DNA from: an uncultured Pseudobdellovibrionaceae bacterium
GTDB lineage: Bacteria > Bdellovibrionota > Bdellovibrionia > Bdellovibrionales > JAGQZY01
NCBI GenBank assembly: GCA_964588335.1
Contig: CAZPOV010000008.1
Location: forward strand, 68,918-132,917
Length of the DNA stretch: 64,000 bases
Reading direction: 5' to 3'
The position numbers were made by a program, and so were the translations under genes. Positions 12,954 to 41,362 of the stretch are shown piece by piece (position 1 is the first letter of the stretch; the number at the start of each line of letters is the position of its first letter). The notes under the pieces were generated by a model. That model worked only from the letters and a program-made list of their open reading frames with translations. It had not been told where the DNA came from and did no database searches.

Positions 12954-13962
12954 GTCGATCACTTTGGTCAATTATGAGGGCGATGCTCTGGCCCTTTCAG
13001 CCGAAGAGGCCATGATTAAAAAATACAACTCTTGGCAAGGGTGGCAATGCTCGGCAGGGGCCGAAAATGTTTTTATTGATGCCGATGGATACGTCTACGT
13101 GGCGGCTTGCAAAGTCAAAGGCAAACAGGGTAACGTTTTTCAAAATCAATGGGAGCTGGATGAGCAGTGGACGACGTGTCCTGCCAAATGGTGCATGTGT
13201 GGCCAGGATATGCAGTTGCGGAAGGTTCGCGATGAATCCTTCTTTTCCCTTCTCGATTATCCACCGGCAAGTAACGTCGACGAGATGGACCGTGTCGATT
13301 GGGTTGTCCCCCATTACTACCACGGCTTTGTGACGCATCCGCGATTTGTGACTTGGGACCTGGGGCGCCGCTGCAACTACTCTTGTAGCTATTGTCATCC
13401 CCTGATTTCCAATCAAACGGATCCGCTGCGCACCGAGGACGAGTTGATGGCTGCGGTCGACCTTATCGAAAAGCGCTTCACCAAAAACAATAAGGCCAAA
13501 TGGATTTTTACGGGCGGGGAACCGACAATCATTCCCTCCTACATGAAAATGATAAAAAGCCTTCGCGGTAAGGGGCATGACCTGCATACTCAGACCAACG
13601 GTAGTCGAAATCCCGATTATCATCGCGAATTGATTGGTTACAGTTTTGTTGGCGTCAGCGTTCATCTTGAGTTTGCCAATGACGATCGATTGTTAAAAAA
13701 CTTCGAAGCCATCATTGATGAAAAACATAAAAACAAAACGGCTGGTTATAACTGGTTCGGCGTTCGGATCATGGTGGGCCCTGGCAATCTTCAGCGGGCC
13801 TTAGAATTAAAGACACGAACCCAGGGTATCAAACACTTCAGTAAACATGGACATATTACTTTGAGTCCTCTTTACGAAAACAATACCACGGACCCAACTC
13901 ACCATGGCCGAATGCTGACTTACGACCCGGAAGAGTTCAAACAAATCCTATCCCACGCCTAA
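12937..13962 (+). CDS. Radical SAM enzyme with an N-terminal Cys-rich domain (paralog 3, divergent)
   Basis: GTG at 12937 lies 6 nt after AGGAGG, and the 12832 ORF start is an overlap artefact. The N-terminal region reads WQCSAG…IDADGYVYVAAC…GN…CPAKWCMC. The core has GRRCNYSCSYC and FTGGEPTI. Confidence 0.8.
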   Translation: MSDTHKSITLVNYEGDALALSAEEAMIKKYNSWQGWQCSAGAENVFIDADGYVYVAACKVKGKQGNVFQNQWELDEQWTTCPAKWCMCGQDMQLRKVRDESFFSLLDYPPASNVDEMDRVDWVVPHYYHGFVTHPRFVTWDLGRRCNYSCSYCHPLISNQTDPLRTEDELMAAVDLIEKRFTKNNKAKWIFTGGEPTIIPSYMKMIKSLRGKGHDLHTQTNGSRNPDYHRELIGYSFVGVSVHLEFANDDRLLKNFEAIIDEKHKNKTAGYNWFGVRIMVGPGNLQRALELKTRTQGIKHFSKHGHITLSPLYENNTTDPTHHGRMLTYDPEEFKQILSHA

Positions 13963-14110
13963 AACAACCGCCGCACCATATACCCAGAAGGTGCCAGGCA
14001 CGTTTCGGGTAAAACAAACGCCGCACCATATACCCAGAAGGTGCCAGGCACGTTTCGGGTAAAACAAACGCCGCACCATATACCCAGAAGGTGCCAGGCA
14101 CGTTGCGGGT
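13961..14110. repeat. Tandem direct repeat, 3 copies of a 50-bp unit
   Basis: The unit is aaaacaaacgccgcaccatatacccagaaggtgccaggcacgtttcgggt, at 13961-14010, 14011-14060 and 14061-14110. Copy 1 has one substitution (13968), and so does copy 3 (14105). The repeat starts inside the stop codon of the last radical-SAM gene. Confidence 0.95.
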
Positions 14111-14303
14111 ACACGGTGCGGCACGGTTCTGTGGTTAAGAGTCGTTTCTTAGCTTTCTTACCTCGACATATTTTGATAGGTGGTTATGATAAAATCTACT
14201 GTCTCGATCTTCGCTTATTGCCTCTATAAATATTTTCAGGGTTTTTATTCTCAACATATTTAAATACTATCAGTCCTTGAGTTCGCAACACTGTGGCTCA
14301 GTT

Positions 14304-37032: not shown

Positions 37033-38133
37033 ATGGATGGGTTCAAATCTATTGTTTTAATTGTTTCAATTGCAAGTGCCTTTTACTTCGTAAGAAATAT
37101 TAAAATTTCCGTCACCGATGCCGCTGCCACTGAAGTTGTTGAATTGGCGCCGGACGCTGATAGCCAGCCTGCGGGTGACATGAGTGACGGTAACAATCCG
37201 ACTTCTGAGTCCTCCAGGCCCTCACGGCAGCCACAAAGTTTTAACCGAGAGGTTGCTGTTGATCCTTTGCAGCAGCTGGTGGCCTTTATTCAGGCCCGAC
37301 AGTTGTGCGAATTTTTAGAGTTTGCAGACCAACACAGCTTGGGAAAAAAAGATCAATTGCGAGCTTTAGGCATGAGCCTTGGTGATGAGAAATTCAGTGA
37401 ACTTTCGGTTTTTATAGATTCCGATTTCAGCCAATTCCATTCTTATAAAACCAAAGCTGCTAAAGGTTTTTTGTTAGCGCAAAACAGAGAGGCTTTTGCG
37501 AATATGAGTTTTACCGGTGGTGATGATTTCGTTAAAGGATTAAAACCGGAGCATAAAACCATACTAGAAATGATCGAGGTGGAGGCCTCCAGAGATTCTG
37601 ACAATCTGTTTTATGCGATGTTACGCAATGACATCTTTCACCGCTACAGCAACGTTGATGATGCCACCAAAGCCAAGCTTTATGATCAGGTGATGGCGAC
37701 GACTTACTATGAGAATCCGGTACAAAGTTTGTTTCGCGATCTTTATCAGCAATCGAAATCAAACGTGGTGCAATTTTATTTGGCGCAATCCATCTTTTAC
37801 AAGCAGTCGGTGGGGCTGGACGAAAACTTTATTGGTCGGAATATTTGGCGATTTTACGATGAAGGAATGCGCTATTATATTAATGGGCTTCTTGGAAAAT
37901 CTTTAGAAAACGTCAGTGATTCGGCGAAAGTCTTTGCTTATGAGACAGGCGTTTATAAAGCCTACCGGAACTCACTCCATTATTTAGAGTATGAGGCTTC
38001 AATGGATGTGGGGGCTTACGATGCCAGCAAGTCCCAGCCCACCTACGGGCAAGAGGAGCTGCGTCTCAGTTTTGAAGGAGCCTGTGACCCCGTTCAGGTG
38101 AGCGAGCTTGAAATCAAGCTAAGGGCTCTTTAA
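37033..38133 (+). CDS. Hypothetical protein with an N-terminal membrane anchor
   Basis: 366-aa ORF with an N-terminal hydrophobic helix (IVLIVSIASAFYF). No motif recognised. Confidence 0.5.
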   Translation: MDGFKSIVLIVSIASAFYFVRNIKISVTDAAATEVVELAPDADSQPAGDMSDGNNPTSESSRPSRQPQSFNREVAVDPLQQLVAFIQARQLCEFLEFADQHSLGKKDQLRALGMSLGDEKFSELSVFIDSDFSQFHSYKTKAAKGFLLAQNREAFANMSFTGGDDFVKGLKPEHKTILEMIEVEASRDSDNLFYAMLRNDIFHRYSNVDDATKAKLYDQVMATTYYENPVQSLFRDLYQQSKSNVVQFYLAQSIFYKQSVGLDENFIGRNIWRFYDEGMRYYINGLLGKSLENVSDSAKVFAYETGVYKAYRNSLHYLEYEASMDVGAYDASKSQPTYGQEELRLSFEGACDPVQVSELEIKLRAL

Positions 38134-38963
38134 AAACAATTAAAGAAGTACTGTTGATAAAGAGCTTTAATCACTTGTTCTTCATCCTCAGATTCTGCCA
38201 GTCGCAGATCATCTCTAAAGTTTTGCCCAGTATAAAACACACAACGATGGTCGTTGTTATTTAAGACACGGACCCGCGCCTCTTCGGGAGTGATGACTCC
38301 GTCGTTGCGACACATTCTCAGTTTTATCCACAGCGTGTGAAGTTCGATGTAATCCTCTTCCGACAATTCAGGATTTCGAAGATCCATGGCGTAATCAATT
38401 CCACTGTATTCAGGCAATTGATCACAGTCCTCCACTTCGGAAGGTAGAACGTCGGTGGAGATCCAAGGATTGCGTTGGTATTGAGTCAGGACATCGGCCG
38501 GTAGAATTTGGCTGAGGAAGTTGGGCATGGGAAAGACTGGAGTCTCAGGGCCCATTCCAGGATCCGGAAGACTGAGGCCCGTGGGATTGGTGGCATCGTC
38601 ATTGACCACAGGCGCAGCAGGGTCCAGGGTGATGTTGGGTTGCCAGTCCTGAATCGTGTCTTCAGGCACTGGGCGATAGTCTTCCTCAAAGTCATTATCG
38701 ATGATGGGTTCGCCAATAGGGGATCCGCCAGTGATTAAATCCATGGGAGTGGGAATTCCTGTGGGGCCTTCATAACGTCCGCCGCCTTCATTGTAGGTGG
38801 GAAGATCAGGGGCATCCCAGCCACGGGGTGAAATGGTAGGGAATGTACCAAAGTCGCTGGCGCCTCGAAGTTCGCCGCCGGGGTAACCCATACTCTGCGC
38901 ATGGGCAAAACCATGAAGACTGACAAAAGTAAAAGCGGTGATCATTTGACGAAAAAAGCTCAT
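38130..38963 (-). CDS. Hypothetical secreted protein (Pro/Gly/Asp-rich, Cys-containing C-terminal domain)
   Basis: Signal peptide MSFFRQMITAFTFVSLHGFAHA. No motif recognised. Confidence 0.5.
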   Translation of the reverse strand: MSFFRQMITAFTFVSLHGFAHAQSMGYPGGELRGASDFGTFPTISPRGWDAPDLPTYNEGGGRYEGPTGIPTPMDLITGGSPIGEPIIDNDFEEDYRPVPEDTIQDWQPNITLDPAAPVVNDDATNPTGLSLPDPGMGPETPVFPMPNFLSQILPADVLTQYQRNPWISTDVLPSEVEDCDQLPEYSGIDYAMDLRNPELSEEDYIELHTLWIKLRMCRNDGVITPEEARVRVLNNNDHRCVFYTGQNFRDDLRLAESEDEEQVIKALYQQYFFNCF

Positions 38964-39069
38964 GGGCCATCCTCTCGAACTCTATAATGAAAGAACTCTA
39001 CCAGCCCCAACAAAGACTCGATAGATCAAGTGTCAAATTTTCACAACCCACCAACACTTACACACCTCT

Positions 39070-39099
39070 TTGTGAACCAACTGTGCAAATCCCTACACT
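39070..39099 (+). promoter_or_regulatory. Putative sigma-70 promoter for the structured RNA/leader
   Basis: TTGTGA (39070-39075), an 18-nt spacer, then TACACT (39094-39099). This predicts a transcription start near 39105. Confidence 0.3.
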
Positions 39100-39104
39100 C
39101 TAAT

Positions 39105-39376
39105 CAAAAAGCGACTCTCCATAGGGCAGATATCGAAAACACAGCCACCCCAATATGACGAGACGCCTTGTCTTTTGCTAGGGAATTCAAGCAAGAACGG
39201 AGTGCCATCAGAAGGTCGCCAGTGGAACCTCGGGGGAGCGTGAAGCGTTCGCGCCAAAGGTGCAACCCCCGCAAGGGCAGGAGGCCCGGGTTCCAATGGC
39301 GATCTTCTGATGGCCCCCGCCCCCGCCGAAGGTCCCAGGGAAAAAGGATAAAAGTCGAGTTTTGTGTCTCATATTT
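39105..39376 (+). ncRNA. Candidate structured non-coding RNA or 5' leader (family unassigned; rod-like fold with a large internal loop)
   Basis: The region is GC-rich and open in several frames on both strands. It has nested helices:
- A 17-bp helix, 39204-39220 with 39298-39314, whose only non-Watson-Crick pair is G.U on the + strand (C.A on the - strand).
- A 10-bp helix, 39224-39234 with 39285-39294.
- A CCC-GCAA-GGG tetraloop hairpin at 39268-39277.
- Outer helices 39178-39184/39333-39339 and 39152-39164/39366-39375. Confidence 0.45.
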
Positions 39377-39433
39377 AAACCTTTTAGCAAAAACACCGAA
39401 TAGCTCTATGAACAAGTTTATGTAGGAGGCAGG

Positions 39434-39712
39434 ATGCTACTGCAAGGTGATTTACAAAAAGTTTTTGATGCTCTTTACCACTTAGGTGTGATTGATCCGG
39501 TTTTAGAAAAAGACTGGCAACAAGAGTTTAAAAAGATAGAGGAAAACCCAATGCCATTGGCAGAGATTCTTGGTGTTGTGAATTCCAATCTCGGTAATTA
39601 CCAAGATTTAATGAACCAGCTCAGCACTTATAACCAAGATCAATTGAGTCATTTGGCTATGGTGGTGGCAAAAGAACTTGTCGGATTTCATACGGCAAAG
39701 GTGATTCACTAA
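39434..39712 (+). CDS. Hypothetical small protein (92 aa, predicted helical)
   Basis: ATG lies 5 nt after GGAGG (39425-39429). First gene of a three-gene operon. No motif recognised. Confidence 0.5.
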   Translation: MLLQGDLQKVFDALYHLGVIDPVLEKDWQQEFKKIEENPMPLAEILGVVNSNLGNYQDLMNQLSTYNQDQLSHLAMVVAKELVGFHTAKVIH

Positions 39713-39722
39713 GGACTGTGCA

Positions 39723-40226
39723 ATGAAAGCTTTAGTATTTGTTTTATTCAGTATGATGTTAACGACTGTCGCTTACGGCGATTGGATGATTGACTTTTCT
39801 CGCCGGCAGCAAGACATGGTCGAGCTGGAAAAACAAAAACAAATTTATAAAGAAGAAAAGAAAAGTGTTCTTGATATGGTGACTGATCGACAAGAGTCTA
39901 TGCAAGACCTAGTTATCATTCATACCCAAGAGGGATATCAACCAAAACGGATTCAGGTGAAGCGTGGTCAACGTTACCGAGTTCATGTCGTCAACGTCGA
40001 TAAAAAACAAAAGAACGTCAGCTTTATGATGGATGCGTTTTCACAGCATCATGGCACTTACTTTGGGGACGAAGTGGTGTTTGAAATTGAACCTCGTAAA
40101 GAGGGACTGTTTGACTTTCAATGCCCTGAAACAAAAGCCAAAGGTCAGATTGTGGTCTACGCTTCCGATGTTCCGATTGAGTCACCCTTAGAAAACATCA
40201 AACTGCGTCGTCCGGCGTCTGAATGA
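39723..40226 (+). CDS. Secreted cupredoxin-like domain protein
   Basis: Signal peptide MKALVFVLFSMMLTTVAYG. The C-terminal beta-sandwich-like segment (YQPKRIQVKRGQRYRVHVVNVD…FDFQCPETKAKGQIVV) resembles EfeO-type cupredoxin-like domains. The assignment is tentative. Confidence 0.45.
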   Translation: MKALVFVLFSMMLTTVAYGDWMIDFSRRQQDMVELEKQKQIYKEEKKSVLDMVTDRQESMQDLVIIHTQEGYQPKRIQVKRGQRYRVHVVNVDKKQKNVSFMMDAFSQHHGTYFGDEVVFEIEPRKEGLFDFQCPETKAKGQIVVYASDVPIESPLENIKLRRPASE

Positions 40227-40234
40227 GGTAATCG

Positions 40235-41362
40235 ATGTCGAGCGGACGCGATGAAGCATTTAAGGACGCCCTCCATAATTATCTTTCTCCTGTTGTAAAA
40301 TACCTAGAGGATGCGGCAGTCACCGAGGTACTTATCAATGGACACGAAGAGGTGTTTGTTGAGACCAAAGGGAAACTCTATAAAACCGATGCGAAGTTCA
40401 GTTCTGAAGATGAATTGTTAGCTGGTATTACAGCGATTGCTAACTATGTCGGACGACGGATCACAACTGAAGATCCGCGTTTGGATGCCCGTTTGCCTGA
40501 CGGCTCAAGAATTCATGCCGTGATTAGGCCCTGTGCTCAATCGGGTCCAACGGTCGCTATTCGAAAGTTCTCACAAGTCGAAGTCGACTTTAAAAAGTAT
40601 ATTGGTTGGGGAGCCATCACTCCTGATGGGGCTCAGTTTTTAGAGCTTTGTATGTATTTGGGGAAGAACATTCTGGTCAGTGGCGGAACCGGGTCTGGTA
40701 AAACCACTCTTCTTGGTCTTCTGTGTGGTCGCATCCCTAACGGTCAACGAGTCATTGTGATCGAGGATGCTTCAGAGTTGACCATTCATTATGAACACGT
40801 GGTGCGATTCGAAACCAAGCAGGCCGATCCGGTAGGTAAGGGAGAGGTGACGATCTATGATCTTCTCAAGTCCAGCTTGCGTTTGCGTCCCGACCGAATC
40901 ATTGTTGGAGAGGTTCGTGGTGCTGAAGCCTTTGAACTGATTCAAGCGATGAATACCGGACACAAGGGCTGTCTGGGAACCATTCACTCCAATTCTGCTG
41001 AAGATGCCTTGGTTCGCCTTGAATCGCTGGCGTTGGGAGCCGGGGGTGTGAGTGAGCGAGCCTTGCAACACTCCATAGGTTCGGCGATTGATTTGGTTTT
41101 ACAAATTTCTCGCTTGCGCGATGGATCTCGAAAGGTGATGAGTATTTCTGAAGTTTTCGGAACCGATGAAAAAGGCAACTACGTCATTAAAGATATTTAC
41201 AATATTCCAAGCTTGAAGTTGCAGCAGGATGGGACTCTTAAAGGCGAACTCCAACCCACCGGTGAGCTTCCCAGTTTTATGAGTGAGATCGAGGAGAATC
41301 GCATCCCCTTCCCACGGTCAAAATTTCTGAATCCTAATAAGCCCAAGAAAAAAGCCTCTTAA
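40235..41362 (+). CDS. Type II/IV secretion-system family ATPase (CpaF/TadA/VirB11-like)
   Basis: Walker A VSGGTGSGKTTLL, Asp box VIVIEDASEL, Walker B PDRIIVGEVRGAEA and His box GHKGCLGTIHSNS. Confidence 0.85.
   Translation: MSSGRDEAFKDALHNYLSPVVKYLEDAAVTEVLINGHEEVFVETKGKLYKTDAKFSSEDELLAGITAIANYVGRRITTEDPRLDARLPDGSRIHAVIRPCAQSGPTVAIRKFSQVEVDFKKYIGWGAITPDGAQFLELCMYLGKNILVSGGTGSGKTTLLGLLCGRIPNGQRVIVIEDASELTIHYEHVVRFETKQADPVGKGEVTIYDLLKSSLRLRPDRIIVGEVRGAEAFELIQAMNTGHKGCLGTIHSNSAEDALVRLESLALGAGGVSERALQHSIGSAIDLVLQISRLRDGSRKVMSISEVFGTDEKGNYVIKDIYNIPSLKLQQDGTLKGELQPTGELPSFMSEIEENRIPFPRSKFLNPNKPKKKAS

What the first reader, a model, noticed from the sequence alone, without database searches (positions are those of the whole stretch)
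39105..39376. GC-rich, highly structured non-coding element upstream of the CpaF-like ATPase operon
This ~270-nt segment is visibly more GC-rich than its flanks. It is open in several frames on both strands, which is typical of structured RNA and not of a gene.

Nested helices:
- A 17-bp helix (39204-39220 / 39298-39314) with 16 Watson-Crick pairs plus one G.U. That pair would be a C.A mismatch on the minus strand, so the + strand is the likely transcript.
- Inside it, a 10-bp helix with one bulge (39224-39234 / 39285-39294).
- Three small hairpins, including CCC-GCAA-GGG (a GNRA loop).
- Outside it, a large internal loop (19 nt / 18 nt, the 3' side being CCCCGCCCCCGCCGAAGG), then further helices (39178-39184 / 39333-39339; 39160-39164 / 39366-39370; 39152-39156 / 39371-39375).

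The overall shape is a rod with a big central bubble, reminiscent of 6S RNA, though the apical three-hairpin junction is atypical. Seven GGA motifs are present.

A plausible sigma-70 promoter (39070-39099) would start transcription near 39105. The element ends ~60 nt before the ATG at 39434, so it could equally be a riboswitch-like leader.

I could not match it to RNase P, tmRNA, SRP, cobalamin, glycine, ZTP or c-di-GMP-I consensus features.
Basis: seen in the sequence. Interest (0 to 1): 0.72.

Follow-up and report, generated by a model that had tools for sequence, protein, structure and literature searches.

The report
Orphan GC-rich hairpin element, two lineages
A real, very stable 111-base GC-rich hairpin sits between two divergent genes of an uncultured Bdellovibrio-like predator, but only two sister lineages have it, it matches no known RNA family, and it lies upstream of the neighbouring operon's promoter, so it is neither a 6S RNA nor a riboswitch.

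Summary
The hairpin is real. Its core is window 39204-39314: a 26-bp imperfect inverted repeat capped by a 59-nt three-hairpin junction. It is the most GC-rich 110-nt stretch of the 64-kb window and folds far better than shuffles.

It matches no Rfam family, tRNA/tmRNA, protein family, phage or plasmid. It is single-copy in the window.

The p92-cupredoxin-ATPase operon is kept in about 90 Bdellovibrionales loci. Only one other lineage carries the element (L001/L086, 98% ATPase identity). Sisters at 93-94% ATPase identity lack it.

A conserved FliA (sigma-28)-type promoter, TTAAA-N16-CCGAAT at 39375-39401, lies downstream of the element. The element is therefore not in the conserved operon leader. 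The 6S and riboswitch readings are not supported.

The two copies are about 86% identical, while four-fold sites are 38-55% identical. This suggests constraint or recent exchange. Covariation is not significant with only two lineages.

Best reading: a young, clade-restricted palindromic insertion acting, if at all, as a folded RNA hairpin. A function-less MITE/REPIN-like palindrome is the main rival. Interest is low to moderate.

The parts
39204..39229 (.). 5' arm of the 26-nt inverted repeat (GCCATCAGAAGGTCGCCAGTGGAACC)
   Evidence: 24 of 26 positions are identical in L001.
39230..39288 (.). Apical 59-nt junction. It comprises helix 39231-39236/39266-39271 enclosing hairpins 39238-39241/39245-39248 and 39249-39255/39259-39265, plus hairpin 39275-39278/39284-39287.
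   Evidence: Minimum-energy and consensus folds. 53 of 59 positions are identical in L001. All six differences lie in loops or keep or improve a pair.
39289..39314 (.). 3' arm of the inverted repeat (GGTTCCAATGGCGATCTTCTGATGGC)
   Evidence: Only 18 of 26 positions are identical in register in L001. In L001 five pairs are lost in two clustered internal loops, one pair is compensated (U-A to C-G), and there are three changes between G.U or a mismatch and G-C.
39150..39203 (.). Left flank shared only by genomes that carry the element. It is 67% identical to L001 and includes the small hairpin-like palindrome CTAGGGAATTCAAG at 39178-39191.
   Evidence: Contigs L084 and L085 of the sister genome end exactly at the base equivalent to 39204.
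39315..39353 (.). C-rich right flank (CCCCGCCCCCGCCGAAGG...), specific to the lineages that carry the element and 79% identical to L001.
   Evidence: On the - strand it extends the stem through G.U pairs in the window only.
39354..39401 (+). Conserved promoter block of the p92 operon, not part of the element. It holds a near-invariant 39354-39383 block, the -35 TTAAA at 39375-39379, a 16-nt spacer, and the -10 CCGAAT at 39396-39401.
   Evidence: Alignment of close relatives. A CCGA(T/A)A -10 box recurs in many of 75 loci. The B. bacteriovorus FliA consensus is TTAAG-N16-CCGATA (PMC3627812).
39434..41362 (+). Downstream operon: p92 (39434-39712), cupredoxin-like p167 (39723-40226), and T2SSE/CpaF-like ATPase (40235-41362).
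38130..38963 (-). Divergent upstream gene p277. It is a fast-evolving protein with a signal peptide and no Pfam match.

Best explanation
The element is a young, clade-restricted, single-copy palindromic insertion. It has a 111-nt core and about 90 nt of lineage-specific flanks. It sits in the hypervariable spacer between the divergent gene p277 and the FliA-driven p92-cupredoxin-ATPase operon, 60 nt upstream of that operon's -35 box.

Shown:
- Its anatomy.
- Its absence from known families.
- Its restriction to two sister lineages.
- Its position outside the conserved operon leader.
- Sequence identity well above the synonymous-site level.

Inferred:
- It acts, if at all, as a folded single strand. 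The most likely form is a locally transcribed RNA hairpin: a long, RNase III-type duplex with a conserved three-hairpin cap. This could be a small stand-alone RNA or part of an occasional long transcript from a distal promoter.
- With a 59-nt spacer between the arms, cruciform extrusion in duplex DNA is kinetically unfavourable (established knowledge). Double-stranded DNA function is therefore unlikely.
- The conserved half (5' arm plus cap) would carry the sequence-specific function. The 3' arm would mainly supply pairing.
For: - Stability and uniqueness of the hairpin.
- No coding potential.
- No Rfam, tRNA, phage or plasmid match.
- The element is present only in the window and in L001/L086. 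It is absent from L002, L003, L087-L090, L096 and 75+ other syntenic loci, by nhmmer and by a covariance model run over 718 kb.
- Core identity is about 86%: 5' arm 92% and cap 90%. Four-fold sites are 38-55% identical and the spacer further left 30-55%.
- All six cap differences are in loops or preserve pairing. The stem shows one compensatory pair.
- The + strand keeps more pairs in the core.
Against: - No transcript evidence exists.
- No convincing promoter or terminator is found on either strand.
- Covariation is not significant: 156 of 500 shuffles do as well. Effectively only two lineages are available.
- In L001 five stem pairs are broken, and the 3' arm evolves about as fast as the flanks.
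- p92 next door has unusually high synonymous identity (0.81). A recombination tract could explain part of the element's conservation without selection.
- Assemblies break at the edge of the repeat, which fits a mobile or unstable DNA element.
Confidence: 0.42

Rival explanations
1. It is a selfish or neutral palindromic DNA element: a MITE-like or REPIN-like insertion, or a relic of one, with no host function. The hairpin would simply be its terminal inverted repeats. The GC-rich cap would be cargo.
For: - The architecture fits: 26-bp terminal inverted repeats, 111 bp, non-coding, intergenic, and absent from the nearest sister genomes.
- The spacer is hypervariable and assemblies repeatedly break in it. 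One MAG contig and an independent Logan contig end exactly at the first base of the repeat, as expected at an insertion/deletion breakpoint.
- The sister genome holds two 89%-identical versions of the left flank.
- The stem is decaying in L001.
Against: - There is one copy in 64 kb. No full or half copy occurs in 718 kb of related DNA.
- No match was found in metagenome, viral, phage or plasmid collections.
- No target-site duplication is visible: the flanks read GGAGT|...|CCCCG.
- No transposase is encoded within 5 kb.
- Identity of 86% in the face of saturated synonymous sites is hard to reconcile with neutral decay.
Confidence: 0.3
2. It is part of a long alternative 5' leader of the p92-ATPase operon. 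The leader would be transcribed from a distal sigma-70-like promoter near 39070-39099. The hairpin would act in cis, as an mRNA-stability or processing element or as a sensor.
For: - It has the same orientation as the operon, and the core pairs slightly better on the + strand.
- No terminator lies between the element and the operon.
- The TTGTGA-N18-TACAC(T/C) motif is kept in the sister genome's p277-proximal region.
Against: - The operon's conserved FliA-type promoter is downstream of the element.
- About 90 lineages run the operon without the element.
- In the sister genome the putative distal promoter is separated from the element by about 270 extra nt.
- The element ends 120 nt before the ATG, and no pairing with the SD is predicted.
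- No riboswitch family matches.
Confidence: 0.12
3. It is a DNA-level regulatory site: a protein-bound palindrome or supercoil-driven cruciform between the divergent promoters.
For: It lies between divergent genes, 60 nt from a -35 box. The single-strand DNA fold is also very stable.
Against: - A 59-nt spacer makes cruciform extrusion in duplex DNA unlikely (established knowledge).
- The internal hairpins and G.U-compatible changes point to a single-stranded form.
- It is absent from relatives that share the same promoters.
Confidence: 0.08
4. It is a 6S RNA or another known housekeeping RNA.
For: Only a loose rod-like appearance in one predicted fold.
Against: - No Rfam match was found.
- The bubble is not conserved.
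- The element is absent from sister genomes.
Confidence: 0.01

Closest known systems
Prokaryotic MITEs with long terminal inverted repeats that fold as RNA hairpins (e.g. Neisseria Correia elements), and REPIN doublets
   Same: About 100-150 bp, 26-bp inverted termini, non-coding, intergenic. Presence or absence varies between close relatives. The predicted long duplex would be an RNase III-type substrate if transcribed. This comparison rests on my own knowledge of these families.
   Different: Only one copy was seen in 64 kb. No target-site duplication, no partner transposase or RAYT, and no family members were found anywhere searched. The central 59 nt is a GC-rich three-hairpin junction that is better conserved than one of the arms.
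Lineage-specific small RNAs of Bdellovibrio (attack-phase sRNAs of B. bacteriovorus, PMC3627812)
   Same: Intergenic, strongly structured, located next to FliA-controlled genes, and not in Rfam.
   Different: No transcript, promoter or terminator is shown here. No sequence comparison with those sRNAs was possible with the available tools.
6S RNA (Rfam RF00013)
   Same: Size range, and a partly rod-like predicted fold in the window copy.
   Different: No covariance-model match, no conserved central bubble, an apical three-way junction, and absence from sister genomes.
Riboswitch or 5' leader elements
   Same: Structured, GC-rich, and upstream of an operon on the same strand.
   Different: It lies upstream of the conserved promoter, has no expression platform, is not co-conserved with the operon, and matches no family.

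Membership tests
6S RNA | Significant match to the 6S covariance models | tested here: not met
   cmscan of the whole window at gathering thresholds gave 0 hits. Sensitive mode on both copies gave only noise at E >= 1, with no 6S hit.
6S RNA | Conserved large central bubble flanked by closing and terminal helices | tested here: not met
   The core is a near-continuous 26-bp helix with a three-hairpin cap. The outer 19/18-nt loop is not reproduced in L001.
6S RNA | Housekeeping distribution, that is, present in related genomes | tested here: not met
   Found in 2 of about 90 syntenic lineages. Absent from sisters at 93-94% ATPase identity.
6S RNA | Binds sigma-70 RNA polymerase and templates pRNA | not testable with these tools
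   Requires biochemistry.
Riboswitch / cis-regulatory leader | Lies between the transcription start and the start codon of the regulated gene | tested here: not met
   The conserved FliA-type promoter TTAAA-N16-CCGAAT at 39375-39401 is downstream of the element. This is inferred from sequence. There is no TSS data.
Riboswitch / cis-regulatory leader | Co-conserved with the regulated operon | tested here: not met
   The operon is kept in 80+ loci, and the element in one other lineage.
Riboswitch / cis-regulatory leader | Expression platform (terminator or SD-sequestering helix) | tested here: not met
   No terminator follows the element. It ends 120 nt before the ATG and does not pair with the SD in the predicted fold.
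Riboswitch / cis-regulatory leader | Specific ligand binding | not testable with these tools
   Requires in-line probing.
MITE / REPIN-type palindromic element | Terminal inverted repeats, small size, no coding capacity | tested here: met
   26-nt arms at 92% complementarity, 111 bp in all. No conserved ORF and no protein homologue.
MITE / REPIN-type palindromic element | Multiple dispersed copies in the genome | tested here: inconclusive
   One copy in the 64-kb window. No copy or half-site in 718 kb of related loci. The rest of the genome could not be read.
MITE / REPIN-type palindromic element | Target-site duplication at the ends | tested here: not met
   The flanks read GGAGT|GCCATCAG...CTGATGGC|CCCCG in the window and GGGC|...|ACGCC in L001.
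MITE / REPIN-type palindromic element | Insertion polymorphism between close relatives | tested here: inconclusive
   The element is absent from the nearest sisters, but its flanks are absent there too, so there is no clean empty site. Two assemblies end at base 1 of the repeat.
MITE / REPIN-type palindromic element | Cognate transposase or RAYT in the genome | not tested
   Only the genes within about 5 kb were annotated, and none is a transposase.
Intrinsic terminator | GC-rich hairpin followed directly by a U-run | tested here: not met
   The hairpin is followed by CCCCGCCCCC on the + strand and ACUCCGUUCUUG on the - strand. The scan did not call it.

The most novel reading that the evidence does not exclude
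The element is a new, functional structured non-coding RNA born recently in one Pseudobdellovibrionaceae clade. It would be a long duplex with a conserved three-hairpin cap, kept by purifying selection, and tied to regulation of the attack-phase (FliA) operon or of the fast-evolving secreted protein p277 next to it.
Probability: 0.15. Interest if true: 0.5.

Novelty: new member of a known kind. Interest (0 to 1): 0.27.

Why it matters
If it is transcribed and under selection, it would be a datable example of a new structured RNA arising in a hypervariable promoter spacer of a predatory bacterium, next to a FliA-controlled attack-phase operon. If it is a palindromic insertion, it is ordinary intergenic turnover. 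Either way it does not bear on 6S RNA or riboswitch biology. A useful by-product is that the p92-cupredoxin-CpaF-like ATPase operon carries a FliA-type promoter across Bdellovibrionales.

Tried and rejected
- **Rfam.** I ran gathering and sensitive modes on both copies and found nothing.
- **tRNA/tmRNA.** ARAGORN found none.
- **Protein or pseudogene.** Pfam on the two longest ORFs gave no hit. A concatenated six-frame query against 5.8 billion proteins gave none. Frame comparison between copies shows stops and indels.
- **Repeat family.**
  - Pattern, blastn-short and covariance-model searches of the window and 86-93 loci found only the known copies.
  - A two-motif pattern scan of metagenome contigs returned three chance hits inside high-GC coding DNA.
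  - Viral contigs, phages and plasmids gave none.
- **Analogous GC-rich hairpins upstream of p92 in other lineages.** The only strong GC peak I read (L035) lies inside a gene.
- **More carriers through exact-protein look-ups.** The window's own proteins are not indexed. P0079, P0010 and P0005 lack the element. P0081 gave a contig that stops inside the spacer.
- **Ideas rejected on reading the sequence.**
  - Tn3-type inverted repeat: only a 9-nt resemblance.
  - attC site: no R'/R'' core.
  - Inverton: the spacer is too short and contains no promoter.
  - ykkC-like leader: no Rfam hit.
  - CsrA sponge: the GGA count equals expectation.
  - Small ORF 39030-39158: substitutions show no third-position bias.
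  - An 8-nt complementarity to the p277 ribosome-binding region is not conserved in the sister copy.

Full report
**What is in the sequence**

Window 39204-39314 is a 111-nt imperfect palindrome.
- The arms are 39204-39229 and 39289-39314. They form 24 Watson-Crick pairs, one G.U and one G.A mismatch.
- The 59 nt between the arms fold into a helix (CGGGGG/CCCCCG) that encloses two hairpins, next to a third hairpin, GGGC-AGGAG-GCCC.
- The region is the GC maximum of the whole 64-kb window: 0.71 against a mean of 0.451. The flanks are 39-43% GC.
- The folds are far more stable than shuffles. The 272-nt segment gives z = -5.1 (+) and -6.5 (-). The core gives z = -8.7 and -7.5 as RNA, against mononucleotide shuffles, and -9.7 as DNA.
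- The outer helices and the 'central bubble' are not reproduced in the second copy.
- The seven GGA motifs equal the composition expectation of 5.8.
- The proposed sigma-70 promoter is weak and was not called by the scan.

**What it is not**

- No Rfam family reaches its threshold anywhere in the window. Sensitive searches of both copies give only noise.
- There is no tRNA or tmRNA.
- The overlapping ORFs have no Pfam match. A six-frame query against 5.8 billion proteins found nothing. The two copies differ by indels and stops in every frame.
- Nothing similar exists in the phage or plasmid collections, or among viral contigs.
- A two-motif scan of metagenome contigs gave three chance hits inside high-GC genes.
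- The element is single-copy in the window. Neither it nor a half-site occurs in 718 kb of related DNA.

**Context and distribution**

The host is an uncultured Bdellovibrionales / Pseudobdellovibrionaceae bacterium. Downstream lies a conserved operon: p92, a cupredoxin-like protein, and a T2SSE/CpaF-like ATPase. Upstream, on the other strand, lies p277, a fast-evolving protein with a signal peptide and no Pfam match.

The operon is syntenic in 80 species-level genomes and in further contigs. The element occurs only in L001 and L086. These are two assemblies of one sister lineage with 98% ATPase identity.

Relatives at 93-94% ATPase identity have spacers of 135-278 nt with no trace of it. The most parsimonious reading is a single gain in the common ancestor of the two carrier lineages.

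**Relation to the operon**

In close relatives, the conserved part of the spacer begins at 39354. It contains TTAAA (39375-39379), a 16-nt spacer, and CCGAAT (39396-39401). The B. bacteriovorus attack-phase FliA consensus mapped from 140 start sites is TTAAG-N16-CCGATA (PMC3627812).

A CCGA(T/A)A box recurs 35-60 nt upstream of the p92 start codon in many of the 75 loci examined, often as a perfect GCCGATAA. From this I infer that the conserved transcript starts near 39408-39412, about 100 nt downstream of the element. No terminator or SD-sequestering structure follows the element. The leader or riboswitch reading is therefore not supported. It survives only as a minority possibility through an unproven distal promoter.

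**Evidence bearing on function**

The window genome and the sister genome are saturated at four-fold sites. Identity is 0.52-0.55 in three operon genes and 0.38-0.44 in p277 and p366. The spacer left of the element is 30-55% identical.

Identity of each segment to L001:

| Segment | Identity |
|---|---|
| Left flank 39150-39203 | 67% |
| 5' arm | 92% |
| Cap (59 nt) | 90% |
| 3' arm | 69% in register, 77% with gaps |
| Right flank 39315-39353 | 79% |
| Promoter block 39354-39433 | 97% |

- The core as a whole is about 86% identical.
- All six differences in the cap fall in loops or keep or improve a pair.
- The stem shows one compensatory U-A to C-G change and three changes between G.U or a mismatch and G-C.
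- The stem in L001 also carries five clustered disruptions that open two internal loops.
- Formal covariation is not significant, because there are effectively two sequences: 156 of 500 shuffles do as well.

One caveat applies. p92 itself has four-fold identity of 0.81. A recombination tract could account for part of the conservation. However, the pattern along the spacer is not monotonic, which fits a single tract boundary poorly.

Strand evidence is mixed. The core pairs better on the + strand (-73.9 vs -66.0 kcal/mol). The window's flanks extend the stem on the - strand through G.U pairs. L001 shows no preference.

**Instability of the locus**

The spacer is a recurrent assembly breakpoint.
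- A MAG contig and an independent Logan contig of the sister genome end at the first base of the inverted repeat.
- Two assemblies start at the same base 221 nt upstream of the element.
- Five Logan runs of another lineage start 141 nt upstream of p92.
- A further contig ends 90 nt upstream of p277.

The sister genome also holds two 89%-identical versions of the 211 nt to the left of the element. This fits a duplication, a strain mixture, or an insertion/deletion polymorphism whose breakpoint is the repeat terminus. I could not distinguish these without reads.

**Verdict**

The 6S and riboswitch interpretations fail their defining tests.

- The best-supported reading is a young, clade-restricted palindromic insertion that functions, if at all, as a folded RNA hairpin under some constraint (confidence about 0.4).
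- The main rival is a function-less MITE/REPIN-like palindrome (about 0.3). The tested data do not support its defining features of multi-copy distribution and target-site duplication, but the whole genome was not available.
- Novelty is that of an unclassified member of a familiar class: a lineage-specific intergenic hairpin or orphan sRNA candidate.
- Interest is low to moderate.

Noticed in passing
window 13960-14111: Three tandem copies of a 50-bp unit (96-100% identical) start at the stop codon of the ORF ending at 13962, in an intergenic region.
   Followed up: no
window 39354-39401, and the region 35-60 nt upstream of p92 in L002-L080: A FliA (sigma-28)-type promoter, TTAAA-N16-CCGAAT, is preceded by a near-invariant block, GTCGAGTTTTGTGTCTCATATTTAAACC. 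A GCCGATAA-like -10 box recurs upstream of the p92-cupredoxin-ATPase operon in many Bdellovibrionales loci. This suggests an attack-phase operon.
   Followed up: partly
window 39434-39712 (p92) compared with L001:451-729: Four-fold-site identity is 0.81 (n=31), against 0.52-0.55 in the next three genes and 0.38-0.44 in p277 and p366. This points to a recent recombination tract or to selection on synonymous sites in this small gene.
   Followed up: partly
L084:1-414, L085:1-414, L086:1-209, L001:1-209: In the sister genome, two contigs carry 89%-identical versions of the 211 nt to the left of the hairpin. One of them stops exactly at base 1 of the inverted repeat, in both a MAG assembly and a Logan assembly. 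The cause could be tandem duplication, strain mixture or an insertion/deletion polymorphism.
   Followed up: partly
L091-L095 (start 141 nt upstream of p92) and L097 (ends 90 nt upstream of p277): Contigs from several independent samples and lineages break inside this same divergent spacer. This suggests population-level hypervariability of the region.
   Followed up: no
L090:1350-1380: A CAATCTC x4 microsatellite occupies the equivalent spacer in another lineage. There the PhoH-like gene directly precedes p92, and the p366 and p277 genes are missing.
   Followed up: no
window 38130-38963 (- strand): p277 has a signal peptide, no Pfam domain, and only two homologues in 5.8 billion proteins. 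It is 75% identical to the sister genome's protein and 44% identical to that of L003, while p92 is 99% and 91% identical. It is a fast-evolving secreted protein.
   Followed up: partly
L052 (CALQIT020000007.1): The record is titled as a Streptomyces griseus MAG, but it carries the Bdellovibrionales p92-cupredoxin-ATPase operon (61% ATPase identity). It is probably mis-binned or mislabelled.
   Followed up: no
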